A stretch of 62,476 nucleotides of DNA, counting the filler, from Stramenopiles sp. TOSAG23-6 (lineage: Eukaryota), in assembly GCA_900128565.1 (NCBI GenBank). It is 30 parts of 30 records of this genome, joined end to end, with 100 filler letters (N's around TTAATTAATTAA, not from the genome) between each part and the next. Parts side by side here need not be neighbours in the genome. Positions count along the whole stretch, not along the records: positions 6,308 to 8,308 come from LT638388.1; 29 more parts are not named here. One strand, written 5' to 3'. How positions within the stretch are numbered: position 1 is the first letter of the stretch; every line of letters starts with the position of its first letter. A model generated the notes under the pieces. That model saw only the letters and a program-made list of their open reading frames with translations. It was not told the DNA's origin and did no database searches. Shown here in pieces: positions 2,369 to 55,102 of the stretch. The translations under genes and the position numbers were made by a program.

Positions 2369-2931
2369 TATTTGCGTTTCAGAATTTTTTCCCTCGACAT
2401 AATTTCATACAAAAACCTATTTTAATCATTGCAAAGGTATGTGGTATAATTTCAGTTTGCTTTGGATTAATACCGAAAAGTTCAAATCTTCCTACAAAAA
2501 TACCGAAAGAGTCAGGTAATTCAGCGCATGTCATTGCTGTATGTTTTCATCATGATTTTTTTAATTTTTTTTTTTTAGAAAAATTTTGTACCTAAAGATT
2601 TTTTTTTGGCATGTTTTTTTTCATCATGATTTTTTAAATTTTTTTCAAAAAAAAATTTTCAAAAAAATTTCGTACCTAACATTTGTTTCAAAAGGTTTTT
2701 GTACAACACAGGAACGGCGTAGAACAAGAGCGTTAAAAGCTCTTGATCAAAAGTTAGCTGAAATTGCAAGCCTTCCAGCTGTACGTTTTCATAATGAATT
2801 TTTTACCAATTTCGAAAATAAAATTTCTATAGAAAATTTCATACCTAACATTTAAAAAAAAAAANAATTTCACAAAACATGTNAGTATTGACAATGTGGA
2901 TGACGTGGAAAACTCTGTCTCTGTGATATAA
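2369..2931 (+). CDS. TMEM115: TMEM115-like Golgi membrane protein, 3' exons (2369-2538, 2712-2780, 2881-2931)
   Basis: FAFQNFFP...IQKPILIIAK and AERRRTRALKALDQKL match TMEM115 C-terminal motifs. Introns: 2539-2711 GT-AG, 2781-2880 GT-AT. Confidence 0.7.
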
Positions 2932-6172: not shown

Positions 6173-6373
6173 GTACGTTTTTTTTTTTTTTTTTTAAATT
6201 TGAAATTNNNNNNNNNNNNNNNNNNNNNNNNNNNNNNNNNNNNNNNNNNNNTTAATTAATTAANNNNNNNNNNNNNNNNNNNNNNNNNNNNNNNNNNNNN
6301 NNNNNNNTCGTACGAAATTTCGTACCTAACAAAAAAATTTAGATTTTTTTTGAAATATTTTTTCACATCACAT

Positions 6374-8205
6374 GGTAGTGTAATGAAAGACGTAGTTTTA
6401 GAAGGTAAACTAAAGGGAACTCCTGATGTTTTGTCGTCTATAAGCGATTCCACAAATCTTGAAATAGAATCCTGTCAAGTACGTTTTCATCATGAAAATT
6501 TAATTTTTTTTTTTTTGGTAAAAAAAATTTCGTACCTAACAATTTTTTTTTTACCGAAAAAAAAAAACAAAAAAAAAATATTTTTTCACAATACAATCTT
6601 CATCTGAAAATAAAAGTCATTCTATTGTCAATGATAAAAAATCTTCTTCTGATACAGTAATTTGTGATACTAAAAGTCGCCGAGTAAAACGTTCGTGTGT
6701 CTCTAATGCTGAAGCTGGACGACTAGCGCTTGCGAAGGCCAAAGCTATGATGCCTAAAGTAGAGCCTCGTATGTTTTTATTTTCATTCCAAAAACATTTT
6801 TTCAATTTTTTTTTATAGTACATTTTGTACCTAAGAAAAAATCAAATTTTCGAAATATTTTTTACGATACATGTAGTTCAAAGGCTCAACGTTTAGTGGA
6901 TGCGAGAAAAGCTGATATTACTACATCTTGGAAACATTACAAAAATAGGTTTTTAGAAATTTCAAATAATCGGAAATTCAAATGTACGTTTTTTTCATTA
7001 ATTTCAAATTTATTTATTTTTTTTTGAAAAGTTTGTACCTAACGATTTTTTTTTTACGAAAAAAAAAAAAAATATTTTTTCACAATACATACACTCCTCT
7101 TGGTAATAGTTATCCCTCATCTTTACGTTCTATGGGACAGTGGCAACGGATGAATGTGTTTCGAATCGAATTGGCAGCAATGCAATATCAACTTTGCTCT
7201 ATTGGAGCTCCGGCTGCAAGTTATTTGCCGTCTTTAGAAGAAAATACTACTTCAAACATTTCTGAAAACCCTAACCCTAATCAAAACAAAAATGCTTCTG
7301 AAGACGAAGAAGCAGTTGAAAAGTCATGGAAAAAATTTCATTTATTTATGAATAAATGCAGTACGTGGCGAGATATTTTACCTATGCTTGAAGAATTAGA
7401 GATGAGTGCTGTGAAATTCTCAGGGGAAAATGAATTGGATGTATGTTTTATTTTCTTTCAAATTCGAATTTTTTTTTCATACGAAATTTTGTACCTAACA
7501 AATTTTTTAAGATTTTTTTTTGAAATATTTTTCCAAAATACATTCTGATAGTCTTGGTGAATTACCTTTGAATGTTAGTCTTTCTATAATGTATGTTTTC
7601 ATTTGAATTAATTTTTTTTTTAGTTTTTCGTACGAAATTTTGTACCTAGCGATTTTTTTTTAAATTTTCGTACATCGTAAAAACTCGTAAAAAATAATAT
7701 GTACCTAACAAATAAATTTTTCTAAAGTAAAACATTTGCACAATACATTTCTGATTTAAGTAAGAATGGTCCAATTTTAGATCTGGAGGATGACGACGCT
7801 GAAGAATTAGAAGCACAAGGCTCATTATCAAATCAAGTAAGTCTAGGCTATGGTTTTGGATTTGGGTATGGCTGTGGCCCTTATTCTCAAGACTGGCAGA
7901 GTGTTCAGGGTATTCGTATCCCTCCTCCAAATGTTCCATCTTCTCAAATCGTCTGTGACTTTCCCCGTTTATGGCGAACACGTAGAGATCGACAGCGTTG
8001 GTGGGCATTTCTTCAATTAGGAAGGAAAAACACAAATGGTGCCGCATATGCTCTTTTTTGTCTAACATCGGCAATTACCCGGTATATTCAAGCTTTGTCG
8101 CACTACCGTCATCAGAAAGGTTTAGAGGAAAATAGTATAGTAACATATAAAAGTGATAAAAGTCGTGGTCTAATCCGAAAAAGATCTACGAAGACACTGG
8201 ATTAT
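6374..8205 (+). CDS. Multi-exon nuclear protein fragment, possibly WHIM/DDT-type chromatin protein (exons 6374-6478, 6597-6768, 6873-6983, 7091-7440, 7544-7590, 7749-8205)
   Basis: Six exons join in frame when five non-AG introns (1 GT-AA, 4 GT-AT) are removed. LWRTRRDRQRWWAFLQ...AAYALFCL is WHIM3-like (tentative). Confidence 0.6.
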
Positions 8206-8495
8206 GTATGTTTTATTTTTTTTTTATTTTGAATTATTTTTTTTCGTACGAAATTTCGTACCTAACAAATTTAAGTTTTTTTTTTTGAAATATTTTTCCA
8301 AAATACATNNNNNNNNNNNNNNNNNNNNNNNNNNNNNNNNNNNNNNNNNNNNTTAATTAATTAANNNNNNNNNNNNNNNNNNNNNNNNNNNNNNNNNNNN
8401 NNNNNNNNTTTATTTTATTTTTTTTTTTTTTGGTAAAAAAATTTTGTACCTAACAATTTTTTTTAAATTTTTTTTGAAATATTTTTCCAAAATTT

Positions 8496-10190
8496 ATTAA
8501 TGGCAACATCAGGTACAAGCCAAGCTCATAAATATAGGCAGTTAATTCTTGAGCAACAAAATAAAGAATATTTACGAAACGAAAATAGTTTTTCTCATAC
8601 TGGTAACAATAATAATGTTGAATTAGGTATGAAACATTTTGGTACAAATTCAAAAAATTCAAAAAATTCAAAAAATTCAAAAAATTCAAAAATTGTCAAG
8701 CATCAACCACCTAACCCTAACCCTAATGAACACAATCAACCAATGAGACAATTACATCTGATATATAATATGATTGAGTTGGGGGAAAGATTAAGTGGTA
8801 CATTTTCATTATGAATTTTTTACTTAAATTTTTTTTTTTTGGTTTTCATACGAAATTTTGTACCTAACAAATTTCGAATTTTTTTTTTTACAATACATGT
8901 GCTTGGATGGGAGATAGTACTACAATGATTTTACATACAACTACAAATAAACCTAACCCTAACAGTACTGTGTTATCTTCAAGGCATCTTGTAACCCCTA
9001 ACCCTAATCTTGTAACACAATGGAAAAACACAATTTTAAAATTTTCATATCACCCCTCAAACCCTAACCCTACCTCAGATGACCCCAACCCTAATGGTAG
9101 TACTAAATATCATTCAGATAAATTTGTCATTTCTGGAAGTGGATGTTCTATATGGAGAGGAAAGCATGTATATTATCTCTCTTATATTTTTTTTCAATTT
9201 TTTGTCTCAATTTTTTATTTTTTGAAAATTTCAATTTTTTTTTTTTTTTAATTTTTTTAAATTTTTATTTTTTTAATTTTTTTTTTCGTACGAAATTTTG
9301 TACCTAACAAAAAAAAAAATAAATATATTTTTCACAAAATATATACCATTTACAATTACAGGACAATTTTTCCCAGAATCAAGTAAAATGATTATAAAAA
9401 AACGTCATTCCACATTATACCATAACACGTGTCAATATATTGGACGACTTGATTTGAAGACAATCATATGTATGTTTTTTTTCAATTTTTTTTCAATTTT
9501 TTTTTCAATTTTTTTTTCAATTTTTTTTTCAATTTTTTTTTTAGGGTTAGGGTTATACAAACACAATATCGAATTTTATCTATAGTTTCACAATACATTT
9601 ATTTTGAAACGACAAACCGTGAAGAATTAGAAAGTCATACTCAAGCAAAATACAAACCTGCTCCTTCTGCAAAACAAGAGCGAAAAGAATTAAAAGCAGC
9701 TTTGTCAAGATCTAACTTTAACTTGGGTGTATGTTTTTTTTTAAATTTTTTTAAAATTTTTTTTTTTTTTTTTTTTTTGTACGAAAATTTGTACCTAACA
9801 AAAAAAATTAAAATGTTCAAAATATTTTCATACAAAATATCCCCATAAGACGGCCTATACGACAGATTCCCATAGTGCTCATGTAGAGTTTGGCAAGGAA
9901 CATTATGTACGTTACTATTTATATGTATTAGTTTTTGTTTTCATATATTTATTTTTTGTTAAAAAAAAAAAAAAAATGTAATGTAATGTAATACAAAATT
10001 TCATACCTAACAAAAAAAAATATTGTTCTTGACATATTTTAATACATTTTATTCTCCACCTGACATTGAGGAACAAAAACGAAGAAAAAAATTATTGGCC
10101 TCATCCAATTTCGAATTTGGATATCAACCAATTGATTATAAATCGAGTAATCCACATCAAAACACTTCTTTTCACAGGAAAATTGTATAG
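8496..10190 (+). CDS. Hypothetical multi-exon coding region(s)
   Basis: Exons separated by family introns (8798-8898, 9729-9840); repeated SNFxL/FG..Y motif; some junctions unresolved. Confidence 0.45.
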
Positions 10191-11890: not shown

Positions 11891-12663
11891 AAGTGAAAGG
11901 CAGTTTCATTTGTAGGGTACCCGGGACACGCAATTTTGTGTCGCAACCTAATGTTAACAGGTCTGTCTGTCAATTATATTTATCAAAATCAAAAACAACG
12001 AAAATTAGTAAAATTCTATACTTGAAAATGAGGACCTTTATATCTAGGATGAAACTTTGTTGTATGTTTTATTTGTTTTGTTTGTTTTGTTGTATCAAAA
12101 ACTCGAAATGCACAAGGAGACCATTGAATCTCTTGACACGTTGCAATAATTGCATTACGAAGTCTTACCCCAATGGCTTCTTCTATTTCAATTTGAGTCA
12201 TATCATATAGAGGTGTACACATGTATTTTGGAAAAATATTTCAAAAAAAAATCGTTAGGTACAAAATTTTTATAAAAAACAAAATCGATTTTTTTGTGAA
12301 AAAAAAAAATAAAACATACATACAAAATTGAGATGTCAAATTTTTGATTTTTGTTTCATCTAAATCGACGGAAGATTGTAGGAGAACACTGACACCATCA
12401 AGAATTACCCATGTATTGACACGAGTATCTTTAGTTATGTTATTGAGAGTATATGTATTTTGGAAAAATATTTCAAAAAAAAACTTAAATTTGTTAGGTA
12501 CAAAATTNNNNNNNNNNNNNNNNNNNNNNNNNNNNNNNNNNNNNNNNNNNNTTAATTAATTAANNNNNNNNNNNNNNNNNNNNNNNNNNNNNNNNNNNNN
12601 NNNNNNNTTTCTTTGTTGTTGGTTATTTTTAGATTTTTTTTGAAATATTTTTCCAAAATACAT

Positions 12664-16974: not shown

Positions 16975-18690
16975 TGTCTTTACATTTTTTGATTGTCTGT
17001 CAATGGCTCAAGATATGAATACAGCCCAAAGAAAAATGGGTTCTCATGTTCGTTACCCGGGTCACGCTAGTCGAATTGCTCTAACATTAAATATTTTATT
17101 GTCAAATACAATTGCAATGATTTCATCATCATGTACGTTTTTTTTTTTTTTTTTTTTTCGGTAAAAAAAACGAATTTATTTTTTTCGTACGAAATTTTGT
17201 ACCTAACAATTTTTTTTTTTTTTTTTTTCGGTAAAAAAAAAATCGAATTTTTTTTTTATAGTAAATTTTGTACCTAACAATTTTTTTTAGATTTTTTTTT
17301 AAATATGTTTCCAAAATACATTTGCTATTTCGTTTATTAAAAATATTGAATATATTGCTAATGATATTGATGAAGAAAAAACACGAAATCAAGACGACAT
17401 GCAAAACAATGCAGATAATGTGTTGTATGTTGAATGTAGTAATACACTTACATCATATTGTTATAGAGAATTAACGTATAGAAAAAAAATGATGATGTCT
17501 CATAACCCTAACCCTAACCCTAAGAAAAATAAAAAAATTAAAAAAATTTCGACTGTACCAAAACAACAAATGAAAAAATTGAATTCACGAAATCGTAATC
17601 TTAAAAAGTCGGTGAATTCTGAGGTTAAAAAAAAAGAAACAGAAAAGTGGTGTCGAATTCAAATCTGGAAACATGAAATAGAGATAAACCAAAAACAACA
17701 AAAACAACAAAAACAACAAAAACAACAACAAAAACAACAAAACAAAAAAAACAAAAAAAAACAATCAAAAAAAGGAAAAAAAAAATCTCGAAATTCTTTA
17801 GGTACAGAATTTACTACAAAAAAATATTTTTCAAAATATTCTACCGTCAACGATTCAATTTGGTACAATATTGATTCATGTATACGGAATTTCCTAGATG
17901 GTATCTATAAAAGAAATGGTGCTCAAGGCTGGGGAATTGGCCGAGGTGGTTTTTTTGGAGGTAGTGTATGTTGTAGTATAATATTTCAATTTTTTTTTTC
18001 ATTTTTTTTTTGTATGAAATTTTTTTTAGAAAATCAAAAATTTCATTTTTTTTTTTTCAATTTTTTTTTGTATGAAATGTTGTACCTAAACAAAAATTTC
18101 ATTTTTTTTTTTCAATTTTTTTTTGTATGAAATTTTGTACCTAACATTTATCTACAATTTCAAATAGTATCCTAATAATTTATGTCGCCACGTTTGACTT
18201 ACCGATTTCGTGTAAAATTGGTAATCATAAATTGTATAATTTTGACAAAGCTGCTATACAATACGCAAATAGTACTATCAGTTGTCCTAACCCTAACCCT
18301 ACTCAAAAAGACCAACTGCAATATACCTCCGAAAGTAATGCAAAACAACTTTTTAATGTCATATGTTCACCAATTTGGGACTATAACGTATTATTTCATT
18401 ATTCATTTCCAATATTACAATTTTTTTTTTTTTTTTTTTTTTCATACGAAATTTTGTACTTAACAAAAAAAAAATTAAAAAAAAAAAAATATTTTTCACA
18501 ATTTATGCTCGTGAAAAAGGACGAAATCTTTGTTTTGCATATAAACGTTTAGAGTATTCAGAAACTGCATTACAATATAGTTTTTATATTCCTCTTCATC
18601 GTAATTTGGCACATGCGTTAAAATCCTTGTTATGTCGATGCAAAAACGAAAAATATGCGACTTTTATGATTCGTCATTTATCAAGAGTTT
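16975..18690 (+). CDS. Hypothetical multi-exon protein fragment
   Basis: Coding-like segments between family introns; no domain recognised. Confidence 0.4.
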
Positions 18691-23157: not shown

Positions 23158-23708
23158 GGACAACTGATAAATAGGCATTGTCTACCATGTGCCAAACAAC
23201 TCGCAGATTTGACCTCAATACAGAATGTGACACAAAAAACGTTTGACAATGCATTGAGGAAATCATCAACATCATGGATAAAGCTTCTACTTCGAAAAGG
23301 CTATCATCCAACTATCCCTCAAATTACCAACATGCTTACAAAATTTCAAGTAAGCAAATTTCTTGTATGTTTTATTTTTTTTCAATTTTTTATCGAAATT
23401 TTTTTTTTTTTTGAAAATTTTGTACCTAACAAAAATTAAATTTTTTTTTGAAATATTTTTCCAAAATACATGAACCTCACATGGGCCTAGGTGTAAATTA
23501 TGCTGATGGAGAAAGTCTAGCAAGCCTTATCGGAAACAACGAACTTGACCTTTTTGATTTTGTGACTGAAGAAGACCAAATCAAATTTAAAATACAACTG
23601 AAGCAACTATATTTGGTTCTATCAAAATCTCGTCCTGTTTCAGAAGACAAAAAACAAAGGCTCAAGGAATGCGTACGCGTGACCAAAAAAATCTTTGAGA
23701 GGGTTTAA
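23158..23708 (+). CDS. Hypothetical protein, 3' exons (23158-23364, 23472-23708)
   Basis: In-frame join across GT-AT intron 23365-23471. Confidence 0.5.
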
Positions 23709-24298: not shown

Positions 24299-24992
24299 AT
24301 GGGGGCCGCTGCGTCAATTAGCCATTTTGAAAAAGAAACACTTCTAGAATTACCTGAAATACTTCGTTCGAAGCAACGTGTATCAAATTTACCCGTCAAG
24401 ACATTAAAAACTCTTTTACATGTAGCATCAGCTAATACTAGCAATTGTATTGAAAAAAAAGATCTTGTTGCTCTTCTGCTAAATACAGAAATACAATTAC
24501 AGCTTTTATGTAGACTTGAAGAATTACAAAAATATAAAAAAAACACAAAAAACACTTTAGAAACACCCATCAATATTGCTCTACAGAATGCAAGTAGACG
24601 ATATGAAAATACTCCAAGGACTCCAGAACCATATTCAATTATTCCAAAACAATACAAAAACACACAAAAGCCATTTGCAAGGAGACCAGAACCATACTCG
24701 AAAATATATCATCCAAGTACGTTTGTATTATTAATTTCGCAAAAAATATTTTTTATACGAAATTTCGTACCTAACGATTTTTTTTACACCAAAAAAAAAA
24801 AAATATTTTTTCCAATACATGTAATAGTAACTCTATAGTGAATCTTCGTACCTCTACTTGTTGTAGTTGTCAATTACCAATTACTTGTACAATAATAACT
24901 GCATTAAATAAAAAGTGGCATAAGCAATGCTTTCGATGTGATAATTGCTCTATATTATTAGGAGAAACTTTTTACCAGCATGAAAATTTACC
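24299..24992 (+). CDS. LIM-domain protein with N-terminal helix-extension-helix (CIEKKDLV) module (exons 24299-24716, 24821-24992)
   Basis: CCSCQLPI...ALNKKWHKQCFRCDNC...FYQHENLP; GT-AT intron 24717-24820. Confidence 0.8.
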
Positions 24993-26084: not shown

Positions 26085-27161
26085 ATGGGTTGTTTTTGGG
26101 GCAAGTCAATAAAGAATGCATCTGTAGCAGCCTCAAGTAGATGTAAAACACTTCAAGATGTTGCATCTTTTATTATTGCTGGTAAAGTAAAGAACATTGT
26201 TTGGTTGTCTGGGGCTGGAATATCAGCATCAGCAGGTATTCCTGATTTTAGAACACCTGGAACAGGTCTGTATGATAATTTATCCAAGTATAATTTGCCA
26301 TATCCTGAAGCAGTTTTTGATTTGGCATTTTTTAAAAAAAATCCACTTCCATTTTATAGACTGTCACGAGAACTCTTACCAGGGTCATACCAACCAACAC
26401 TAACACATACATTTATTCAACTTTTATATAAGAAAAATATTCTACTACGCTCTTGGACACAAAATATTGATGGATTGGAAAGGGTTGTAGGCATTCCAGA
26501 AAAAAAACTTGTGGAAGCTCATGGAACATTTGCTACATCCCGTTGTATTTCGTGTATGTTTTTTTTTTTTTGAAAAAATATATTTTTTTTCATAGCAAAT
26601 TTTGTACCTAAACAAAAAATATTTTTTTTTTTTTTTTGAAAAATATTTTTTTTTTCATAGCAAATTTTGTACCTAAACTAAAAAGATTTTTTTTTTTTTT
26701 TTATATTTTCAAAAAATACATGTGGGACAAAATATCCATCTGATAGAATGAAGCGTTATATTTTATCTTTACGTAGTGAAACGTCAACAGTTCCTCAATG
26801 TAAGTCTTGTAGAGGCCTACCAAAGCCTGATATTGTTTTTTTTGGTGAATCTTTGCCAAAAAAGTTTTATAAAAATCAAAAAGATTTTGAAAAGTGTGAT
26901 TTATTAATTGTAGCAGGTACATCACTTGAAGTTCAACCCTTCTGTTCTTTACCTGGAAAAGTGAAAAATTCAGTTCCTCGTTTGTTAATGTACGTATTCA
27001 TCGTTAGGGTTAGGGTTATATGTCCATTTTTTTTTTATTTTATTTTATTTTTTTTTTTTTTGAATGTACCTTTCATACTAAAAAAAAAAAAAAAACAAAA
27101 ACAAAAAAATTAATTTTTTTTTTGTATTACATATTTTTTACACAACAGTAATAGAGAATTA
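26085..27161 (+). CDS. SIRT2: NAD-dependent deacetylase, class I sirtuin (SIRT2-like); exons 26085-26553, 26722-26989, 27149-
   Basis: [24 protein letters not shown], CxxC/Cxx[19 protein letters not shown], and PRLLINRE after splicing. Confidence 0.92.
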
Positions 27162-29634: not shown

Positions 29635-31248
29635 ATGAGTTCTGATGATATATCAGCTGTGTATCACAACAAAACCCATGAAGAATGTGTTCCTACCCCG
29701 GCAGAGCTCGCGATGAAGAATGGCTCTGGTATTGGTGACATGGAAGACATGGTAAATGGCCTTGACCTAGGCCCTGACGTTAGTCGTGGTTCTCGCCCAC
29801 CAATGGTACTCAATCGCGTTGTTTCCAAGCGACGTGCACAACGTAGAAAAAACAGTAATAATAGGGAAGTAGAATCAAAAAATAACGAAAATGTATCTGA
29901 ATTATCTAATTTGGAGTCTCCAGTGAAAAGTGAAAAAACCTCGGTTATACCCGGAACTCAATCAATCTGGGTAAAGACGTATGGTTGTTCCCATAACATC
30001 AGTGACAGTGAATACATGTCAGGAATGCTTGATTCTTATGGATATCGTATCGTTGAAGATAAAAGCTCTGCAGATCTTTGGCTTATTAATAGCTGTACTG
30101 TAAAGGATCCTTCGGAAAGCGCTTTTGTTAATTTAGTGGAAAGAGGAGCTAAACTAAACAAGGGTGTTGTTGTGGCAGGTTGTGTACCCCAAGGTGATGA
30201 AAATGTACGAGGTCTTGAAGATGTCAGTGTTGTTGGTGTTAGCCAAATTGATCGGGTGGTGGAAGTTGTTGAAGAAACTTTAAAAGGTAATACTGTCCGC
30301 CTGCTCGCGAAGAAGTCACTTCCCCGCCTCGATTTACCAAAAATTCGTCGTGATAATCTCATTGAAATTATTCCCTTATCAACTGGTTGTCTCGGTGCAT
30401 GTACATACTGCAAAACAAAACATGCTCGTGGAGTATTAGGTTCTTACACAATTGAAACTATTGTTAATCGGGCTCGTGTGGCTATTGATGAAGGTGTTGG
30501 TGAAATATGGCTTTCATCTGAAGATACTGGTGCATATGTATGTGTTCAACCCTAACCACTAGTACCCCTAACCACTTCAAATTTCGATTTTTTTTTTTTT
30601 CAAAATCATGTCTCTAACGAGTTTTATTTGAGTTGAAATATGTTCCAAAATTACATGGTCGTGATATTGGAACAAGTCTTCCTTCGCTACTTAATGCACT
30701 CATCGAACTCCTACCTATTGGAGGAAATACGATGCTCAGAGTTGGAATGACAAATGTATGTTTTATTTTTTTTTTGTTTTCGAAAAAAAAAAAATCGAAT
30801 TTATTTTTCGTACGAAATTTTGTACCTAACAAATTTTCTAAATTTTTTTGAAATATTTTTCCAAAATGCATCCGCCTTTTATTCTTGATCATTTAGATGA
30901 AATTGCGGACGCTTTAAATCATCCTCAAGTATTTTCATTTCTTCATGTTCCTGTCCAATCTGCTAGCGATAATGTTCTTCGTGGGATGAATCGTGAATAT
31001 ACAAGAGATGAGTTTTGTCGCGTTGTAGACTTTTTACGCCGACGGGTCCCGGGTATCGTCATTGCGACAGATATTATTTGTGGCTTTCCTGGAGAGACGG
31101 ATGTTGATTGGTTAGATACACTCAGACTTGTTAAGCGATATGAGTTTCCTATATTAAACATCTCACAATTTTATCCACGACCAGGAACGCCAGCCGCTCG
31201 AATGAAGCGCGTGAGAACTCAATTAGTCAAAGCGCGATCTCGAGAATT
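29635..31248 (+). CDS. CDKAL1: tRNA methylthiotransferase CDKAL1; exons 29635-30537, 30657-30755, 30872-31248
   Basis: TYGCSHN, radical-SAM [54 protein letters not shown]. Confidence 0.95.
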
Positions 31249-33578: not shown

Positions 33579-34662
33579 GAGAGCAGCACAACAAAAGCTA
33601 AATGATGGTCTTGAGGCAATGGATGCTTTACGAGCGAGGAGAGCCTTTGAAAAAAAAGACAGAGAAGCAAGAGAAAGTACATTTTTAGTATGAATTTCAT
33701 TTTTTTTTTTTGAAAATTTTGTACCTAACATTTTTAGTATGAATTTCAATTTTTTTTTTTTTTTTAAAATTTTTTTATTTCAAAAAAAAATTTTGAAAAT
33801 TTTTTCCGTACGTAATTTTGTACCTAACAAATTTTTAGTATGAATTTAATTTTTTTTTCACAATACATGGGAATTGCGTGAAGCGAGGGAACGTAAACAG
33901 CGTATAGATGACATGCAAGCAGCAAGAGGCATTCAAGCGTTAGCAGCAGCTCGACGGCAAAAAAGAATTATTCAAGATCAAAGAGAAACATTTCACCGAA
34001 ATTATCAAGCTCAAGCTGAGCAGCGGGAGTATGTTTTTTTTTTTGAAAAAAAAATTTTTTTTTAGAAAAAAAAAAAAAAAAAAAATTTTAAAAAAAATTT
34101 TAAATTTTTTTTTTGGTTTTTTTTTAGTAAATTTTCAAAATACATGCAGATTCGATTAGTGGAAGAAGCAAAACAGAATTTTAGGGAGCAAAATCGTGAT
34201 GATATTCTTGCCCAGGTACAAGAAAAAGAAGAAAAGAGAAAACAAGCTCAAAAACGTTATATGTTCGTTTTATTTTTCTTGAATTTCGAATTTAATTTTT
34301 TTCGTACGAAAATTTGTACCTAACAATTTTTTTTTTATAGAAAATTTTGAAATATTTTCAAAAAATACATCAAGGAGGGGCATGAAAATGTTCGACGACG
34401 TGAGCGAGAACTGGAAGATGTGAATAAAATACAACAACAAAAGATTGAGTTCTTACGCTCTAAAGGTGTTCCAGACGCATACATGTACTTTTTTAATTTT
34501 AATTTTAATTTTTTTTTTTTTTTTTTTTTTTCGTACGAAATTTTGTACCTAACGATTTTTTTTACACTTTGGACATTTTTTTAATTTTACAGGAGTGATA
34601 TAATCAAATATGATGCACAAAAGGTCATGATGGACGACTATAAAAGAGGAGGCAGACGGTAA
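33579..34662 (+). CDS. CFAP45: Cilia- and flagella-associated protein 45, 3' exons (33579-33676, 33869-34028, 34146-34262, 34371-34484, 34593-34662)
   Basis: DALRARRAFE...KEG...KIEFLRSKGVPDAY matches the CFAP45 C-terminus; three GT-AT introns and one GT-AG intron. Confidence 0.8.
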
Positions 34663-35715: not shown

Positions 35716-37496
35716 CGACATTACTATTTACAAAATTAAAACGTTTGAAACAATATCTTTACAAATTATATTTGGGGTGAGAGTGAAGATGAAAATGAAA
35801 TCATGACAAATTTAAACGTTATGTGTACAGACCTATCTTTTGTGATTTCGTGTTGTTCAAAAACGTTTTCTTCTGGAGCTTCAGGAAATAATGTAGGAAA
35901 TAATGTCGAATCAGATTCAATCATTCAAAATGCTTTAAATGATCTTGGTATAATTCCATTTATTAATGAAATGTTGAAAATTCCAGTCCCAGATGTACGT
36001 TTTCAAAATATTTGTACAATGTTTATTTTTTTTTTATATGAAATTTTGTACTTGAAAAAAAAAGATTTTTTTTTTTTTTTTTTTTTTTTCAAAAATTTAA
36101 AAATTAAAATTTTTTTTTTTTTTTAAGACCTATATAAGAAAAATTTTATACCTAACAAAACAATTCTGAAAAAAAAAATATTTAATGCAAAATGAAAAAA
36201 CTGAAAATCTGGAACTCAATTCTAATACTATTGATGAAAAAAATAAAAATTTTGAAAATACAAAAAATGATTTCAGAGTTGGCGTCAAAGTGATTGAAAC
36301 ACTTCAAAAGTTTAATTTCTTATTAATTGCTTGTACGTTTTTATTATTATTTTTTTCTTTTTTTTTGTTTCGTAGATAATTTTATACCAAACAAGAAAAC
36401 AAAAAAAAAAAAAAATTTACACTACATGGATAAAAACAAATAAGAAAACTCAAGAAATAATGAGTGTATATGCGACAAGTCTGTACGAGCATATTGATTT
36501 AGTACCCGGTACCACTGATATGATTTGTGAAATTTTCAGGAATAATTTTGATTTATGTAAAGAAATCCCATATGCTCTTTTAGACTATTATATAATGAAA
36601 ATAATGAAGACAAATGATCCAAAAGCAGAATATACGTTTTCATCTTTATCATACACTTTTTTTTTTTTTTTTTAAATTTTTTTTTTTTTTAATTTTTTTT
36701 TAATTTTCATAGTACATTTTGTACCTAACAAAAAAAAATACCAAAAAAAAAATATTTCTTCACAATGTTTATCTGTCATTAATGAATATTGTATGTAATC
36801 CAGAAAACAAAGCAATACGAGATAATCAAATGTTTATTTTAAATAAATTAATGAGCAAAAAAAGAAATCAGAAGTGTCTTTTGCTATTTGCAAATGGAAA
36901 AGATTATGAAACACGAAAAACATTAATGAATAGAAATAATTTTATGGCATCAAATGTATTGCAATATCATATTCAATTATTAGAATTATTATCAAGTTGC
37001 TGTGCTGGAGATTTTAATTTAGCAGAGGCAAAATGTCAAACTGCGTTACATTCAACAGATCTTTTACGAGGCATTCTTGATGATGATACTAAATGGAGTA
37101 TTAAACTTCCACTGTTGCACCTTTTTTATAATATGTATGTTTTGTTTTGTTTTATTTTGTTTTGTTTTATTTTTTTTTTTATTTTCGGTAAAAAAAAAAA
37201 AAATCGAATTTATTTTTTTTTGGTAAAAAAATTTTGTACCTAACAAATTTTTTTAGATTTTTTTTTTGAAATATTTTTTTAAAATAAATGTGTATAGAGG
37301 CAGAGTTGAAAATTGCAGGATTAGTAAATGATGAAAGTTTTCATACGTTAATGGAAAATTTCAATTCATTTTTAGTCAAGTATTGTGAAATTGGAGCAGT
37401 TGGTATACAACAACATTTATATTCGATTGATTTAACAAAGGAACCTCAACTATTTCTTGATTATCAAAGATATGGGGAGAAAGGAGTGACGTCAAT
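35716..37496 (+). CDS. ITPR: Inositol 1,4,5-trisphosphate receptor-like channel, RIH-region exons
   Basis: EIFRNNFDLC and YHIQLLELLSSCCAG...AEAKCQ...CIEAELK align with ITPR; four complete introns, none ending in AG. Confidence 0.8.
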
Positions 37497-41888: not shown

Positions 41889-42369
41889 AATATTTTTCCA
41901 AAATACATCTTCTCTAGATTGTCATTTGAAAAATCAAGAGAAAATCATTCTAGACAATGAAGCAAAAATTATTGCAGATCTAAAAGCAAAAAACTCAATA
42001 GATCATCTTCATGCAAAGTTACACGAACGATTTTTCGGGAATGGAACAGAAATTGCTAAATTGGAAAAAGCAGTAGCTGCGCGTGAAGCATTGACTCAAT
42101 CTCGTGTACGTTTTTTATTCTGAATTTTAAATTTATATTTTTTTCATACGATATTTTGTACCTAAACAAAAATGATTCTTTTTTGAGTTTTTTTTTTATG
42201 AGTTTTTATTCTATACATTTTTTATTATGAATTTCAAATTAATTTATTTTTTGTCAAATGTTATGTAATTAATAATAAAGTTAGCTTTTCTACATTTTTT
42301 ACAATACATATCCGAGAGGAAAAAATGGCAATTAAAATTTTAATGAAGAAACTTGGAAGACATGTGTAA
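41889..42369 (+). CDS. Coiled-coil protein, 3' fragment
   Basis: Short exons flanking a family intron; no domain recognised. Confidence 0.35.
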
Positions 42370-46140: not shown

Positions 46141-47826
46141 CGAACTTTCGATCACATGACTGAAGATAATAAGAATTTGCAGGATCTGCGATATATAATG
46201 CATCAATGAATAAACCTGCTGCACGTACAGCTGCACAACACGAATTCCATTGAAGATTTCCAATATGTTTTGTGAAAAAAATTCTACAATTTTCTTTTTT
46301 TTGTTAGGTACGAAATTTCATAGTAAAATACAAAAAAAAAAAAAAAAAAAAAAAAACCTAAAATTCGTTAGGTACAAAATTTCGTACAAAAAACAACAAA
46401 CACCTTGACCAGCAAATCCAACATAGAGAATATTTGATTGTTTTGATTTGCAAAATCTATCATAAAAATGATCCGTAGCTGCGAAAACTTCTGTGAATAT
46501 TTCTTCCCGTCCTAACCCTAACCCTAACCCTAATGAAGTTTCATTTTTATGTTTGTTTTTTTCTATGCTATTTTGAATACTATAATTTTGATATAAAGTC
46601 TCATTTACATTATTATCCAGGTTTGTTGATGTAGGGTTAGGGTTATTCCATGCAATACCTAGACGTCTTTTGGAGTTTCGTAATGCAGCTTTATGTTCAA
46701 AGATATTTTGTTTTGTTTTTTTTGTAAGTTAGGGTTAGGTTTAAAAAAAATTCAAAAAAAATATTTCATGAAAAAAAATATTTCATGAAAATATATATAT
46801 ATATATATATATAGTAGGGTTAGGTTTTTTTTGGTATATATGTGTGGAAAGAAAACGTACCAGCCTTTTTCATATTAAAATAATTGCAACTCAAACCTAA
46901 ATTTGTTAATTTTGAAAGTTTAGAAAATATTCCATCATTTAATATGTCTATATCTTTTAAAAAATTCATTTGCAAATATAATGATTTAAGTTTCACTAAT
47001 TTTGATAGAGACTGAGGAAGAGCACATAACATATATTGTGAAAAAATATTATTATTATTATTTTTTTTTTTTGGAAAAAAAAAATATTTGTTAGGTACGA
47101 AATTTCGTACGAAAAAAAAAACCGAGTAAAAACATTAAAAAATTCAAAAAAATAAAACATACTGATTATTATGAGCATCGATTTTTTCTAATAAAACACA
47201 ATTTCCAATTTCATTTGGTAATGCCCTAATTAAATTTCCATAAATATGTAATTCACGTAACATTTTTAATTGACCAATTTCAGCAGGTATGTCCTTTAGC
47301 TTATTATCTTCAAGATGTAAAATAGATAAAAGAGTTAATTTTGATATAGAAACATAATTAACAGATGTGTCTAAGCCAACTACTACTGTTGTACTAGGGA
47401 TATTTGAGATTGTAGTGTTGTTTTGATTTTTTTGATTTTTTTGAATTTTTTGAATTTTTTGAATTTTTTGATTTTTTTGATTTTTTTGAATATTTAAATG
47501 TTCAATCTTATTTGATGCTAAATGCAAAACTTTTAATGTTTTTTTCTGATATAATATATTATTTGGTATTTTCTTGAAATTATTCCATGAAGCAAGGAGG
47601 CATTGAACATTATGGCAGTTTTTCAATAATACAAGTATTGTGAAAAAATATTTCAAAAAAAAATCTTAAAAAATTCGTTAGGTACGAAATTTCGTATGAA
47701 ACTAAAAAAAAAAAATTAAATTAGAAATTCATATAAAACATACAAGCGGTGTATCCTGTGCGTTACCTTCCATTTCGAGTACTTTCAAAGAACGTTTTGC
47801 ATAGTACTTTTCTGTTTTGAGAAGAA
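46141..47826 (-). CDS. Multi-exon LRR protein with an additional C-terminal domain
   Basis: LHLEDNKLKDIPAEIGQLKMLRELHIYGN; introns 47633-47743 (GT-TT) and 47031-47162 (GT-AT). Confidence 0.7.
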
Positions 47827-48153: not shown

Positions 48154-50011
48154 TCTTCGTTCTTGGGGTCAGTTTTGTCAGTTACCCAATTGGCCATCAA
48201 ATTTTCGCCAATTAAGTTGGTTATACGGAGTAAATGGTCTTCATGTGTGGTGGCCTTCTAAATCTCGTCGCCATCGTCGTTTGCCATCCCCTTTCCATTG
48301 GGAAGCCGATACTGTTCCGATTGCTATTCACCCTTCCTTTGCTGCCATTGCTCTCGCTACGGGTCTTCGTTATACACATGCTCATCTTCCTCCAATATTT
48401 GACCTTCGCCCTGTGGCACAGCCATGTCTTCATGTTTTACTAAATACTATTCTTCATGAATTTATTGATAATATTGACCTTGACAATGAAATATCCATGC
48501 TGATTGTACAGGGGGAAGTTCGTGTAGTATATAAAAACATGGGAGATGAAAATATTGTTCATTTGAACAAGAAAACACTCGAATCAAAACAAATGGATGA
48601 AAACAAGAAAACACTCGAATCAAAACAAATGTATGAAATTGTTAAAACATCTTCATTATTAACCACCCCTTTAGGTAAAGAATTATTACAACTATGCCGA
48701 GCTGCTAAAAGTTTCGGCCATTTATTTACATCTTTTGAACTTTTAGTTCATCATTCATTTCAGCATGCTTTTGAAGCTCGTGAGCAATTATATAAATATT
48801 TACACAAACAAAATGAAATCAAAATAACAAAGCAGGATAAAGACAAATATATGATATCGCTTTTATTGTTTCATTCAGCAGTTGACATTTTAGTATATTG
48901 TGATATGATGTATAAAAAAGAAGAGGAAGAATTGTATGAAAAACAATCAGCTGTAGATGATGGAACAGAAATGTCAGAGCTACAAAGTAATGCTCAAAAA
49001 GATCTCCCTATTAATGCTCAAAATGATCTCGCTATTAATGTACTATTACGTGTAGCTCGAGCAAATGACCCAAGTCGCTGGGGGATGCTATTTGGTTATC
49101 ATTATCCAAACTATCCTATACAATCTCTTCCATTAAGCGACATTTTTAATAGATGTATTTCAGCTGGAAATCTCAAAAAAGCTTTTTTTACATTGAATAT
49201 TCTCAGTTCGGAGTATATACAATCATCAAATTCAAGTTATGTCAATGATGAAACCAAAACGACTTATATTCAAATGTTATTTGATTCTGCACTTCAACAA
49301 AATAATTTATCCATTGCTGCTGATGTTTGGCATCTCTATTCAAAAAATAGAGAAATAGAAAAAAAGAAGGAGAGATCCGCCTCCATCCATATGCATCATG
49401 AACGGCTTTTAAATTCGAAATTTAATGTTGAAGATAAAAACGATCCCTCCTCTCTTGAGGATGAGAAAAACAAAAAAGATTCTCTTAATTTTGAAAATGC
49501 AATTTTAAGGAGTAAACGATCATGTATGTTTTTTTTTTTTTCAAATTTGAATTTATTTTTTCGTACGAAATTTTGTACCTAACAAATTTTTTAGATTTTT
49601 TTTTAAAATATTTTTCCAAAATACATATGATGATGGGATCTTTCAAACGACGCCAAAACAAGGCATCCATGCGAAAACGGCACATTCATTACAAACATCC
49701 TTGAATGCATACATATCCAAAATATCTCAAAAGCATCAATTGTTATATGAAACAGAAAAAGATAATATTTTATCCAAAAACATACATGATGAACATGAAA
49801 ATAATAAAATAAATAAAAATAAAAACAGTGCGGGTGCAGTACATGTTTCGAATAATAATAAAATAAATATAAATAAAAACAGTGCGGGTACAGTCCATAC
49901 TTCAAATAGTGGTGAAACAAAAAAAGTATTTCATGGTGCTGGTGTAGGATCAAAAGTGAATACTATAACGTTGCGTGATAAAGAAAAACAACATAGAATT
50001 CGTGTGAGAAT
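48154..50011 (+). CDS. RIC1: RIC1-like RAB6 GEF subunit, C-terminal region
   Basis: WLYGVNGLHVW, QPCLHVLL, FELLVH, VARANDPSRWGMLF...IFNRCISAGNLKKA. Confidence 0.7.

Positions 50012-50781: not shown

Positions 50782-50812
<31 letters not shown>

Positions 50813-55070: not shown

Positions 55071-55102
<32 letters not shown>

What the first reader, a model, noticed from the sequence alone, without database searches (positions are those of the whole stretch)
6984..7090. Intron ends are inverted repeats flanked by a duplicated AT: introner/MITE signature
The typical context is AT|GTATGTTTT...AAAATAC-AT|. ATGTAT(G)TTTT is the reverse complement of AAAATACAT, and about half of the upstream exons end in AT (roughly three quarters in T) instead of the usual AG. 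This fits either a GTA...TAC element with a 2-nt AT target duplication or a TGTA...TACA element inserted at A^T; either way splicing restores the original site exactly. Established: introners derived from DNA transposons exist in Micromonas and Aureococcus, but they generate canonical sites. Alternatively, end-pairing in the RNA could itself define the acceptor, as proposed for euglenid nonconventional introns.
Basis: partly seen in the sequence, partly recalled or inferred. Interest (0 to 1): 0.82.

Follow-up and report, generated by a model that had tools for sequence, protein, structure and literature searches.

The report
Mobile intron family without AG ends
An uncultured marine protist carries dozens of near-identical ~100-base introns in unrelated genes that start with the normal GT but mostly end in AT rather than AG, often repeating the last two exon bases, so they look like a mobile element that turned itself into introns.

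Summary
Window 6984-7090 is an intron (GTACGT...TAC+AT) between two open exons. It belongs to a family of ~100-nt introns: its core motif occurs 86 times against 2.9 expected. I curated 48 copies. 46 of 48 start with GT, and 46 of 48 carry a TACCTAAC-like branch motif about 42 nt from the 3' end. Only 8 of 48 end in AG; 33 end in AT.

Three kinds of evidence support the non-AG ends:
- one polyA-RNA contig skips one copy exactly;
- three junctions give gapless alignments with sirtuin and CDKAL1 homologues;
- 34 of 37 testable copies join in frame.

Upstream exons end in AT in 24 of 48 cases and in T in 36 of 48. The last two exon bases equal the last two intron bases in 24 of 48 cases (17.0 expected, p=0.0003), including AA/AA, TT/TT twice and AG/AG.

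The inverted repeat is only GTA/TAC plus the palindromic AT. It shows no covariation and no consistent fold.

Best reading: an introner family in a marine stramenopile, probably inserted with a 2-bp target duplication that supplies the 3' end. DNA transposition is inferred, not shown. A public gene model mis-splices one copy.

The parts
6982..6983 (+). Last two exon bases AT upstream of the focal intron (first copy of the 2-nt direct repeat)
   Evidence: sequence; row 6984-7090
6984..7090 (+). Focal intron, 107 nt, GTACGT...CAATAC+AT; GTACGT subfamily
   Evidence: In-frame join of 75 and 151 open codons, phase 1. nhmmer hit to the family model. Its 3' part and junction lie in a contig of run X3, record 18, 7063-7485, 1 other letter.
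6984..6992 (+). 5' splice-site motif GTACGTTTT
   Evidence: G 44/46, T 46/46, A 43/46 at +1..+3
7032..7043 (+). Core TTTGTACCTAAC, candidate branch site, 48 nt before the 3' end
   Evidence: 86 hits against 2.87 expected; motif in 46 of 48 introns
7086..7088 (+). TAC, reverse complement of the GTA at the start
7089..7090 (+). Terminal AT of the intron (second copy of the 2-nt repeat)
6479..6596 (+). Family intron GT..AA, flank AA/AA; the only copy with a direct RNA junction
   Evidence: X11 record 1 (154 nt, 0 other letters) joins 6475|6594, with a 3-nt CAA ambiguity. Frame ok. Hairpin around the branch motif, z -3.9.
26554..26721 (+). Family intron GT..AT in a sirtuin gene, flank GT/AT, duplicated core
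   Evidence: Join gives a gapless alignment to 3 homologues. The public model P0241 has junk there.
26990..27148 (+). Intron GTACGT..CAACAG (canonical AG) in the same sirtuin gene, exon ends AT
   Evidence: Join restores the conserved PRLL/INRE stretch
30538..30656 (+). Intron GT..AT in the CDKAL1-like gene, flank AT/AT
   Evidence: Gapless alignment across the junction with 6 homologues
30756..30871 (+). Family intron GT..AT (..TGCAT) in the CDKAL1-like gene, flank AT/AT
   Evidence: Gapless alignment across the junction; frame ok
2539..2711 (+). Intron GT..AG, two cores, flank CT/AG
   Evidence: frame ok
2781..2880 (+). Intron GT..AT, flank CT/AT
   Evidence: Family ends; frame untestable (N follows)
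6769..6872 (+). Intron GT..AT, flank TC/AT
   Evidence: Frame ok 76/50; present in X3 record 16
7441..7543 (+). Family intron GT..AT, flank AT/AT
   Evidence: Frame ok; closest pair with 49524-49626
7591..7748 (+). Family intron GT..AT, flank AT/AT, two cores
   Evidence: frame ok
8206..8308 (+). Family intron GT..AT, flank AT/AT, ends at a contig end
   Evidence: frame untestable
8798..8898 (+). Intron GT..AT, flank TG/AT
   Evidence: frame ok 110/116
9168..9344 (+). Intron GT..AT, flank AT/AT; ends uncertain
   Evidence: frames do NOT agree
9729..9840 (+). Intron GT..AT, flank GT/AT
   Evidence: frame ok
12221..12319 (-). Family intron GT..AT, flank AT/AT
   Evidence: frame ok
17133..17321 (+). 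Family intron GT..AT, flank AT/AT, internal ~70-nt tandem duplication
17966..18167 (+). Intron GT..AG?, three cores; 3' end uncertain
   Evidence: frames do NOT agree
18388..18506 (+). Intron GT..AT, flank AC/AT
   Evidence: frame ok
23365..23471 (+). Family intron GT..AT, flank TT/AT
   Evidence: frame ok
24717..24820 (+). Intron GT..AT, flank AA/AT
   Evidence: frame ok
33677..33868 (+). Intron GT..AT, flank AA/AT, repeated inner units
   Evidence: frame ok
34029..34145 (+). Intron GT..AT, flank GA/AT
   Evidence: frame ok
34263..34370 (+). Intron GTTCG..AT, flank AT/AT
   Evidence: frame ok
34485..34592 (+). Intron GT..AG with full family core, flank AT/AG
   Evidence: frame ok
36632..36770 (+). 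Intron starting AT (ATACG) and ending TT, flank AT/TT
   Evidence: frame ok 85/156
37135..37289 (+). Intron GT..AT (..TAAAT), flank AT/AT
   Evidence: frame ok
42106..42309 (+). Intron GT..AT, flank GT/AT, composite
   Evidence: frame ok but downstream only 19 codons
46265..46401 (-). Intron GTTTG..AT, flank GT/AT, two cores
   Evidence: frame ok
47031..47162 (-). Intron GT..AT, flank CA/AT
   Evidence: frame ok
47633..47743 (-). Family intron GT..TT, flank TT/TT
   Evidence: frame ok 40/162
49524..49626 (+). Family intron GT..AT, flank AT/AT
   Evidence: frame ok 467/145
50437..50536 (-). Family intron GT..AT, flank AT/AT
   Evidence: frame ok
50742..50873 (-). Intron GT..TT, flank TT/TT; donor uncertain
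   Evidence: Frames agree only if the donor lies 4 nt upstream, at 50877
52428..52594 (+). Intron GTTTG..AG, two cores, flank GT/AG
   Evidence: frame ok with the AG end, not with the family-type end 52581
52925..53040 (+). Family intron GT..AT, flank AT/AT
   Evidence: frames do NOT agree
53159..53263 (+). Intron GT..AA, flank TA/AA (holds N)
   Evidence: frame ok
53775..53905 (+). Family intron GT..AT, flank AT/AT, two cores
   Evidence: frame ok
54591..54756 (+). Family intron GT..AT, flank AT/AT
   Evidence: frame ok
55042..55214 (+). Family intron GT..AG, flank TG/AG
   Evidence: frame ok
55333..55483 (+). Intron GT..AT, flank AT/AT
   Evidence: frame ok
55707..55837 (+). Intron GT..AG (..ATACAG), flank AG/AG, inverted core copy at its 5' end
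   Evidence: frame ok, upstream only 18 codons
56639..56759 (+). Family intron GT..GG, flank GT/GG
   Evidence: frame ok 55/81
57292..57429 (+). Intron starting AT (ATACG) and ending AT, flank AT/AT
   Evidence: frame ok 149/47
57521..57640 (+). Intron GT..AT, flank AT/AT
   Evidence: frame ok
57771..57890 (+). Intron GT..AT, flank AT/AT
   Evidence: frame ok
61785..61869 (+). Intron GTAAGT..CCCAG (canonical) that still holds the TTCGTACCTAAC motif
   Evidence: frame ok 252/111
62139..62239 (+). Family intron GT..AA, flank AT/AA
   Evidence: frame ok

Best explanation
The feature is one copy of an introner family: a ~100-nt element that has multiplied into many unrelated genes of an AT-rich marine stramenopile and is removed from the mRNA as an intron.

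The element brings its own 5' splice site (GTATGT or GTACGT) and a strong branch site (TACCTAAC, about 42 nt from the 3' end). This points to the ordinary U2-type spliceosome (inferred).

The 3' cut falls two bases after a conserved TAC, whatever those two bases are: AT mostly, also AA, TT, GG and AG. I read those two bases as the second copy of a 2-bp target-site duplication made when a GTA...TAC element inserted, mostly at AT. Removing the element plus one copy then restores the original coding sequence.

Shown:
- family membership;
- removal from RNA or from the reading frame at non-AG ends;
- an excess of 2-nt direct repeats.

Inferred:
- insertion as DNA;
- the identity of the enzyme;
- spliceosomal removal with a lariat at the TACCTAAC motif;
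- the exact register of the cuts. The register is ambiguous by 2-3 nt wherever the repeat is perfect.

My odds: repeated mobile intron family with non-AG ends, about 0.9. The 2-bp duplication / DNA-transposon step, about 0.5.
For: Family:
- The core motif has 86 matches against 2.87 expected.
- The family model has 71 hits at E<1e-3. 40 lie in curated introns on the same strand, 24 are cut by gaps, 7 are other, and none lies opposite to a curated intron.
- Copies in unrelated genes reach a local score of 86 over ~101 nt.

They are introns with non-AG ends:
- A polyA metatranscriptome contig (X11 record 1, 154 nt, 0 other letters) skips 6476-6593. No allowed register of that cut is GT-AG.
- Joins at 26554-26721, 30538-30656 and 30756-30871 give gapless alignments to homologues.
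- 34 of 37 testable non-AG introns join the two longest open frames in phase, where a third is expected by chance.
- 9 of 38 non-AG introns hold a YAG at least 10 nt after the branch motif. Of the 15 non-AG introns with any AG between the branch motif and the 3' end, only 4 have one that would keep the frame open.

Duplication:
- The last two exon bases equal the last two intron bases in 24 of 48 introns, against 17.0 expected, p=0.00034.
- Among 14 non-AT ends, 4 match (AA/AA, TT/TT, TT/TT, AG/AG) against 0.54 expected, p=0.0007.
- Controls: exon end against next-exon start, 6 of 46; exon -4,-3 against intron end, 3 of 46.
- The left-side repeat length averages 1.40 against 1.13, p=0.0125.
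- The exon AT is ancestral coding sequence (conserved Tyr, Asn and Ile codons) in the CDKAL1 and sirtuin genes.

Precedent: Micromonas introners have TIRs, a 3-nt TSD and a 3' site co-opted from the TSD (review PMC11282704, passages).
Against: - 24 of 48 introns lack the matching dinucleotide. In 13 the intron ends in AT while the exon does not.
- Up-AT against last-AT alone gives Fisher p=0.06.
- A at intron -2 is kept in 44 of 48 and AT in 33 of 48, far more than a passively copied target should be.
- Of 8 AG-ending introns, only 1 has an AG exon end, while 5 have a T. The exon-end T therefore looks partly like a general splice-site context.
- Matches are only slightly commoner among the most similar (youngest) copies: 15 of 24 against 9 of 24.
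- The inverted repeat is 3 bp plus a palindromic AT, with no covariation.
- No transposase was found among 10 long ORFs scanned. No clear non-genic or full antisense copy, no empty site and no autonomous element was seen in 59 kb.
- 3 of 37 frame tests fail.
- The curated set was hand-built from one window.
Confidence: 0.55

Rival explanations
1. The same mobile intron family spreads through the splicing machinery (reverse splicing into transcripts, then copying back into DNA) or some other route without a duplication. On this reading (C)AT| is this organism's proto-splice site, the counterpart of the usual (C/A)AG|. The AT at the 3' end is an element-borne acceptor, CAT in place of CAG, which a relaxed second-step site choice tolerates.
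For: - The element carries full spliceosomal signals: GT in 46 of 48 and a branch motif in 46 of 48.
- All 48 curated copies are sense to their ORFs.
- The 3' end reads C-A-N, with A kept in 44 of 48 and the last base T 36, G 9, A 3, like a degenerate CAG.
- Family members with ..ATACAG and ..TGCAG exist.
- The exon context C(-3) 18/46, A(-2), T(-1) | G(+1) 23/46 mirrors the classical MAG|G pattern.
- AG-ending introns also follow T-ending exons, 5 of 8.
- 24 of 48 copies lack the repeat.
Against: - The excess of non-palindromic direct repeats (4 of 14 against 0.54 expected, p=0.0007) has no explanation without a duplication.
- From recall, no high-copy family has been shown to spread this way.
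- A partial antisense copy at 17780-17824 hints at presence at the DNA level outside the sense-intron context.
Confidence: 0.25
2. Pairing of the two intron ends in the RNA defines the cut sites, and removal is independent of the spliceosome, as proposed for euglenid and hemistasiid nonconventional introns.
For: - ATGTAT can pair with ATACAT.
- The minimum-energy fold pairs the ends in 22 of 44 introns and in two of the four introns folded with controls.
- The cuts would be offset by 2 nt across that helix.
Against: - Pair counts equal what column composition gives, and no pair covaries. 14 introns have C at +4 opposite A.
- Fold energies are ordinary: z -0.21 for the focal intron, -0.78 and -1.67 for two others.
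- The focal and RNA-verified introns do not pair their ends.
- AA/AA and TT/TT flanks cannot pair.
- A conserved GTAYGT and a branch motif are the opposite of the defining lack of a U1-type 5' site (PMC6221363 passages).
Confidence: 0.06
3. These are AT-AC introns of the minor (U12-type) spliceosome, read two bases to the left (AT|GTA...TAC|).
For: - For the 20 of 48 introns with AT on both sides, the register AT...AC fits the mRNA equally well.
- The core resembles a U12 branch consensus. That resemblance is recalled, not tested.
Against: - 24 of 48 exons do not end in AT.
- The 5' end is not the ATATCC type.
- The branch motif sits a median 42 nt from the 3' end, whereas minor-type branch sites sit close to the end (recalled).
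- No U12-class RNA matched in the window, though the window is small.
Confidence: 0.02
4. Artefact: the repeats are amplification or assembly chimeras of a single-cell genome, not real introns.
For: - The window is a chain of ~2-kb contigs.
- 21 of 78 stretch ends lie at family copies.
- One dynamin junction looks collapsed.
Against: - Contigs of an independent seawater run (X3 records 16 and 18, with 2 and 1 other letters) carry exon-intron junctions of the same gene.
- Copies sit at frame-preserving places in 34 of 37 cases.
- One copy is absent from an RNA contig.
Confidence: 0.01

Closest known systems
Introner elements of Micromonas pusilla (and Aureococcus), non-autonomous DNA transposons that create introns
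   Same: Hundreds of near-identical short introns in unrelated genes. The element carries the 5' site. The intron equals the element plus one copy of a short target duplication, so the 3' boundary lies in or beside the duplication. Source: review PMC11282704, passages. The primary paper, Huff et al. 2016, was not read.
   Different: Those elements give canonical GT/GC-AG sites, have clear TIRs and a 3-nt TSD. Here only 8 of 48 end in AG, the inverted repeat is 3 bp, and the repeat is 2 nt and present in half of the copies.
Non-canonical introner elements of Amoebophrya A25/A120 (Syndiniales)
   Same: Repeated introns in a marine protist with non-GT-AG ends, direct repeats overlapping the exon/intron borders, inverted repeats at the ends, and no transposase inside (PMC7789003, passages).
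   Different: Amoebophrya: IRs of 8-20 nt forming hairpins, DRs of 3-5 nt, no preferred terminal dinucleotides, and U1 not detected. Here: a fixed GT start, a strong branch motif, one dominant end (AT), almost no hairpin, and a stramenopile host.
Non-canonical introns of the tunicate Fritillaria borealis
   Same: Most introns escape GT-AG, are lineage-specific, show TIR and TSD marks of MITE origin, and are thought to be removed by an adapted U2-type spliceosome (PMC11282704 passages; PMC13326754 abstract).
   Different: Fritillaria's commonest ends are AG-AC and AG-AT, so its 5' end is non-GT. Here the 5' GT is kept and only the last base of the intron departs.
Nonconventional introns of euglenids and hemistasiid/eupelagonemid diplonemids
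   Same: Non-AG ends, short direct repeats at the junctions, and a proposed MITE origin (PMC12621601 sections 3, 5 and 11; PMC6221363 passages).
   Different: Those lack a U1-type 5' site and a branch signal, and rely on strong end pairing. Here both signals are present and the pairing is weak. The organism is not a euglenozoan.

Membership tests
Introner elements (repeated, recently multiplied introns) | Many introns in unrelated genes share sequence along their whole length | tested here: met
   86 core hits against 2.87 expected; 71 model hits at E<1e-3; alignment of 9 full copies; best pair scores 86 over ~101 nt
Introner elements (repeated, recently multiplied introns) | Copies are removed from the mRNA | tested here: met
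   1 RNA contig junction; 3 non-AG and 1 AG junction by homology; 34 of 37 in-frame joins. Only one copy has direct RNA evidence.
Introner elements (repeated, recently multiplied introns) | Positions are lineage-specific or polymorphic (recent gain) | not tested
   No orthologous gene structures or alleles could be fetched. Two metagenome-contig scans gave 0 and 3 chance hits.
MITE / TIR DNA transposon | Terminal inverted repeats of about 10 bp or more | tested here: not met
   Only GTA/TAC (46, 46 and 40 of 48 paired) plus the palindromic AT. The pair at +4/-6 holds in 28 of 48. There is no covariation.
MITE / TIR DNA transposon | Target-site duplication of fixed length flanking the element | tested here: inconclusive
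   The 2-nt repeat is present in 24 of 48 (p=0.00034), including 4 non-palindromic cases. It is absent in 24.
MITE / TIR DNA transposon | Cognate autonomous element with a transposase; copies outside genes in both orientations | not testable with these tools
   No whole genome is held. 10 long ORFs show no transposase domain. One partial antisense copy lies at 17780-17824.
Canonical U2-type GT-AG introns | GT start, branch site, AG end | tested here: not met
   GT 46 of 48 and branch-like motif 46 of 48, but AG in only 8 of 48
U12-type AT-AC introns | AT start with an ATATCC-type 5' site and a branch site close to an AC end | tested here: not met
   24 of 48 exons do not end in AT; the branch motif sits a median 42 nt from the end. 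The consensus itself is recalled.
Euglenid-type nonconventional introns | No conserved 5' site; a stable helix bringing the ends together | tested here: not met
   Conserved GTAYGT; z-scores of -0.21 to -1.67 for 3 of the 4 introns folded with controls, and ends paired in the minimum-energy fold in 22 of 44 introns

The most novel reading that the evidence does not exclude
In this marine stramenopile lineage the spliceosome no longer reads the last two bases of the intron. It cuts at a fixed place after a conserved ...AATAC motif, about 42 nt past a TACCTAAC branch site. A transposon carrying a 5' site, a branch site and this 'ruler' therefore becomes a clean intron at any 2-bp target, with the target duplication itself serving as the intron's end. 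That would be a transposon-driven rewrite of 3' splice-site choice in a group not known for it, and it would mean the published gene sets of such organisms are systematically mis-spliced.
Probability: 0.3. Interest if true: 0.85.

Novelty: new variant of a known kind. Interest (0 to 1): 0.7.

Why it matters
Introners are the best current explanation for bursts of intron gain. Nearly all described cases make canonical sites. The exceptions (Amoebophrya, Fritillaria, euglenozoans) have messy, variable ends.

This case is clean. It has one dominant family, a normal 5' site and a yeast-strength branch site, and a 3' end that is AT and sometimes simply repeats the exon. That makes two old questions directly testable: where a new intron's acceptor comes from, and how much of the AG rule the second catalytic step really needs.

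There is also a practical side. A public gene model of this organism splices one copy wrongly and reads into another. Protein sets of such uncultured plankton, which are used in ocean gene catalogues, may therefore carry many junk segments.

Tried and rejected
1. A diplonemid origin (noncanonical introns reported from single cells; citing papers read) is rejected. The CDKAL1-like exon has oomycetes as its best named relatives at 72-74% identity. A sirtuin exon is 100% identical to a EukProt protein whose source name contains MAST. Gawryluk et al. 2016 itself is not held, so I could not compare its intron logos.

2. More copies from public contigs. A gapped pattern found 0 stretches. A 19-base core found 3 stretches that are unrelated chance matches.

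3. An empty site in DNA. X3 record 16 starts exactly at 6594, but 6491-6593 was skipped as a repeat by the tool, so this says nothing.

4. Most joints and loose ends come from other copies of the family and were not used. Parts without cover in RNA runs were not used.

5. X12 record 8 starts at 6372, two bases before the predicted exon start at 6374. This would fit a spliced upstream exon ending in AT, but it is a single contig of depth 2 and is only a hint.

6. Rfam found nothing at gathering score in the window.

7. Earlier notes of this scan held nothing.

8. The protein atlas gave no usable taxonomy. The dynamin search was dominated by animal dynamins.

9. Age against repeat match gave 15 of 24 against 9 of 24, too weak to use.

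10. A longer (4-nt) duplication spanning both junctions is not supported. The right-side repeat averages 0.87 against 0.82, p=0.20.

11. Motif words for the branch core gave no relevant paper.
Full report
**What the window is.** The 62,476 bases are not one locus. They are about 30 separate ~2-kb contigs, with lengths falling steadily from 2003 to 1964, joined by 100-base N/linker blocks. Some contigs have inner N gaps. No whole genome is held. The DNA is AT-rich, 20-43% G+C per 2 kb. The window is therefore a scattered sample of a draft genome, which suits family statistics but not synteny.

**The focal feature.** At 6982-7091 the sequence reads exon ..AT, then GTACGTTTT..., the core TTTGTACCTAAC at 7032-7043, then ...CACAATAC + AT, with the exon resuming at 7091. 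Removing 6984-7090 joins a 75-codon open stretch to a 151-codon open stretch in the same phase.

**A repeated family.**
- The 11-base core occurs 86 times with at most 1 mismatch, against 2.87 expected (largest shuffle 8).
- Nine full copies align along their whole ~100 nt: a T-rich 5' part, a 12-base palindrome around CGTACG, the core, a T run, and a conserved 3' motif ending ..AAAATACAT or ..CACAATACAT.
- A profile built from eight of these copies finds 112 hits at E<=1 and 71 at E<1e-3. Of the 71, 40 lie in the introns I curated, all on the intron's strand. 24 are cut by contig gaps and 7 are other. None lies opposite to a curated intron.
- Two subfamilies are visible: GTATGTTTTATTT.../..CCAAAATACAT and GTACGTTTT.CAT.../..CACAATACAT.
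- Copies in unrelated genes are very close. 7441-7543 against 49524-49626 gives a local score of 86 over ~101 nt.
- Several copies carry tandem duplications of the inner ~70 nt with a second core, for example 17133-17321.
- 21 of 78 ends of N-free stretches lie within 15 nt of a family hit, so the repeats seem to break the assembly.

**Are they introns, and where do they end?** There are three independent lines of evidence.

1. RNA. In a polyA metatranscriptome (run X11), a 154-nt contig with no mismatches lies on 6387-6475 and goes straight on at 6594-6658. CAA occurs on both sides, so the cut can be slid by 3 nt. The allowed registers are CA..TA, AA..AC, AG..CA and GT..AA, and none is GT-AG. 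The family-aligned register is GTACG...ATAC+AA.

2. Homology.
   - Joining 26553 to 26722 gives ..CISC followed by GTKYPSDR.., which aligns without a gap to three sirtuin homologues.
   - Joining 30537/30657 and 30755/30872 gives ..GAY/GRD.. and ..MTN/PPF.., gapless against six CDKAL1 homologues.
   - A fourth intron in the sirtuin gene (26990-27148) ends in a canonical ..CAACAG and restores the conserved PRLL/INRE stretch.

3. Reading frames. I placed the 3' end where the family alignment puts it, two bases after TAC. I then asked whether the longest open frame upstream and the longest downstream are in phase.
   - This holds for 34 of 37 testable non-AG introns. Three others were untestable because of an N or fewer than 20 codons. 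Chance would give about a third.
   - The three failures are 9168-9344, 52925-53040 and 50742-50873. The last fits if its donor lies 4 nt upstream.

An independent seawater run (X3, library type not on record) has contigs with 1-2 differences that carry the same exon-intron junctions. These include the 3' junction of the focal intron (records 16 and 18), so the elements are real DNA.

**The ends, counted on 48 curated introns**. The set was hand-curated from profile and motif hits. 46 were used, and two were added later.
- First two bases: GT 46, AT 2.
- Last two bases: AT 33, AG 8, AA 3, TT 3, GG 1.
- A at intron -2: 44 of 48. Last base: T 36, G 9, A 3.
- Upstream exons end in AT in 24 of 48 (AT is 0.102 of flanking exon dinucleotides; p=4e-12), in T in 36 of 48 (p=1e-10), and in AG once.
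- The next exon starts with G in 23 of 46.
- Phases are about even.

**Direct repeat.**
- The last two exon bases equal the last two intron bases in 24 of 48 introns. Dealing the intron ends out at random gives 17.0 (p=0.00034).
- AT is self-complementary and common on both sides, so the telling cases are the others. Of 14 introns not ending in AT, 4 match: AA/AA at 6479, TT/TT at 47633 and 50742, and AG/AG at 55707. Only 0.54 is expected (p=0.0007).
- These are direct repeats, not inverted ones. There is no case of AA with TT or the like.
- Controls are low: exon end against next-exon start, 6 of 46; exon -4,-3 against intron end, 3 of 46.
- The mean stretch by which the cut can slide left is 1.40 nt against 1.13 (p=0.0125). 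The stretch to the right is 0.87 against 0.82 (p=0.20). The repeat is therefore the 2 nt on the left, not a longer one across the junction (n=47, with 8206-8308 dropped for an N).

Evidence against a simple duplication:
- 24 of 48 introns do not match.
- In 13 the intron ends in AT but the exon does not.
- AT against non-AT alone gives p=0.06.
- AG-ending introns follow AG exons only once in 8, but T-ending exons 5 times.
- Matches are only slightly commoner among the most similar copies, 15 of 24 against 9 of 24.

**Inverted repeat and RNA pairing.**
- Only G+1:C-3, T+2:A-4 and A+3:T-5 are well kept (46, 46 and 40 of 48). The next pair holds in 28 of 48, because 14 introns start GTAC yet keep ATAC.
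- For every pair the number paired equals what the column make-up gives, and nothing covaries.
- In minimum-energy folds the ends pair in 22 of 44 introns (44 of the 46 then curated, two dropped because they contain N).
- With shuffled controls the focal intron has z=-0.21 and unpaired ends. Two copies of the other subfamily pair AUGUAU with AUACAU, but with z=-0.78 and -1.67.
- The RNA-verified copy has a strong inner hairpin with the branch motif in its loop (z=-3.9), and its ends are unpaired.

**Branch motif and skipped AGs.**
- A TACCTAAC-like motif is present in 46 of 48 introns. Its last A lies a median 42 nt (range 23-144) from the 3' end.
- It also occurs in otherwise dissimilar canonical introns, such as 61785-61869 (GTAAGT...CCCAG). 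It is therefore likely the organism's branch signal as well as a family mark.
- Of 38 non-AG introns with the motif, 15 have an AG before the 3' end and 9 have a YAG at least 10 nt after the branch. Only 4 have an AG that would keep the frame open.
- So the first AG is not the rule here. This rests on frames, not on RNA.

**Organism and annotation.**
- The CDKAL1-like exon has oomycetes as its best named relatives (72-74% identity), plus one unnamed protein at 79%.
- The sirtuin exon is 100% identical, over 100% of its length, to a 276-aa EukProt protein whose source name contains 'MAST'. I read this as a marine stramenopile. That reading of the name is my inference.
- That public model replaces GTKYPSDR with [13 protein letters not shown] and ends by reading into the next intron. 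Its makers' pipeline evidently forced canonical sites.
- A paper on MAST single-cell genomes mentions introns only twice, in its methods, and never mentions splice sites (PMC5778133, term search).

**Mechanism.** The safest statement (about 0.9) is that this is an introner family: a short element that multiplied into many genes and is removed as an intron at non-AG ends.

How it moves is inferred. I favour (about 0.5) insertion of a GTA...TAC element as DNA with a 2-bp staggered cut, mostly at AT. The intron is then the element plus one copy of the duplication, as in the Micromonas model, where the 3' site is co-opted from the duplication (PMC11282704). This explains three things:
- the non-palindromic repeats;
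- the variable last two bases at a fixed distance from TAC;
- the exon AT being old coding sequence.

It does not explain the 13 AT ends without an AT exon, nor the near-fixed A at -2. For those one must add selection for a spliceable end, or later change.

The main rival (0.25) keeps the mobile family but takes CAT as an element-borne relaxed acceptor and (C)AT| as the local proto-splice site, with no duplication. Pairing-defined, spliceosome-independent removal (0.06), a U12-type reading (0.02) and artefact (0.01) fit poorly.

**Register caveat.** Where the two dinucleotides are identical, the cut positions cannot be fixed. GT..AT, TG..CA and AT..AC give the same mRNA. Where they differ, protein homology may still not decide. 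At 26554, both registers give the same residues. I prefer the GT register because GT is kept in 46 of 48.

**Known relatives and novelty.** The nearest systems are listed here, with the sources I saw.
- Micromonas/Aureococcus introners (canonical sites, clear TIRs): review passages only.
- Amoebophrya introner elements (non-canonical, hairpin IRs of 8-20 nt, DRs of 3-5 nt, no preferred ends): passages of PMC7789003.
- Fritillaria (AG-AC/AG-AT): review passages and an abstract.
- Euglenid and diplonemid nonconventional introns (no 5' signal, strong pairing): PMC12621601 sections 3, 5 and 11, plus PMC6221363 passages.

None combines a normal 5' site and branch site with a dominant AT end in a stramenopile.

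I found no report of this in the searches. The main text of PMC12130899 has no occurrence of 'stramenopile' or 'MAST'. The library lacks most subscription papers, and supplements were closed, so 'not in print' is provisional. I rate it a new variant of a known kind.

**Limits.**
- One window of 59 kb.
- A hand-curated intron set whose 3' ends were placed by family alignment.
- One direct RNA junction.
- No genome, no alleles and no orthologous structures.

Noticed in passing
36 places, e.g. 7269-7280, 8709-8726, 17506-17523, 46510-46533, 27004-27015, 57327-57344: Short telomere-like blocks, (CCCTAA)2-3 or the complement, occur 36 times at up to 1 mismatch, against 0.09 expected. Many sit in frame inside ORFs, giving PNPNP, GLGLGL or VRVRV peptides. 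Others lie inside introns. This may be a second kind of small invasive or repair-derived insert.
   Followed up: partly
26085-27161 (sirtuin gene): The public EukProt model P0241 of this very gene mis-splices intron 26554-26721, putting a junk 13-residue stretch in place of a conserved 8-residue one. It also runs into intron 26990-27148.
   Followed up: yes
contig ends throughout, e.g. 6308, 8308, 12507, 23088, 33425, 48088: 21 of 78 ends of N-free stretches lie within 15 nt of a family copy. The repeated introns seem to be what fragments the assembly.
   Followed up: partly
39990-40060 (-), dynamin-like gene: Only the 3' half of a family copy follows the exon, and about 7 residues that dynamins conserve between ..ENIEE and KYITEKNC.. 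are missing. This could be an assembly collapse or a deletion between two intron copies. The dynamin comparison is from recall.
   Followed up: partly
36632-36770 and 57292-57429 (+): Two family introns start with AT (ATACG) instead of GT and still join in frame. One of them has T at -3, which would pair with that A.
   Followed up: no
17780-17824 (-): A partial family copy (core region only) lies antisense to its neighbours, inside a long low-complexity open frame of the + strand. It is the only hint of a copy outside the sense-intron context.
   Followed up: partly
6504-6568 (+), inside intron 6479-6596: A long T-run/A-run hairpin presents the branch motif in its loop (minimum energy -23 kcal/mol, z -3.9, no shuffle of 200 as good). 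Similar ..GGTAAAAA../..TTTTTACC.. arms occur in other copies.
   Followed up: no
55707-55837 (+): This intron carries an inverted copy of the core right after its 5' end as well as the normal core near its 3' end, giving a ~20-nt inner inverted repeat. It ends in a canonical AG after an AG exon end.
   Followed up: no
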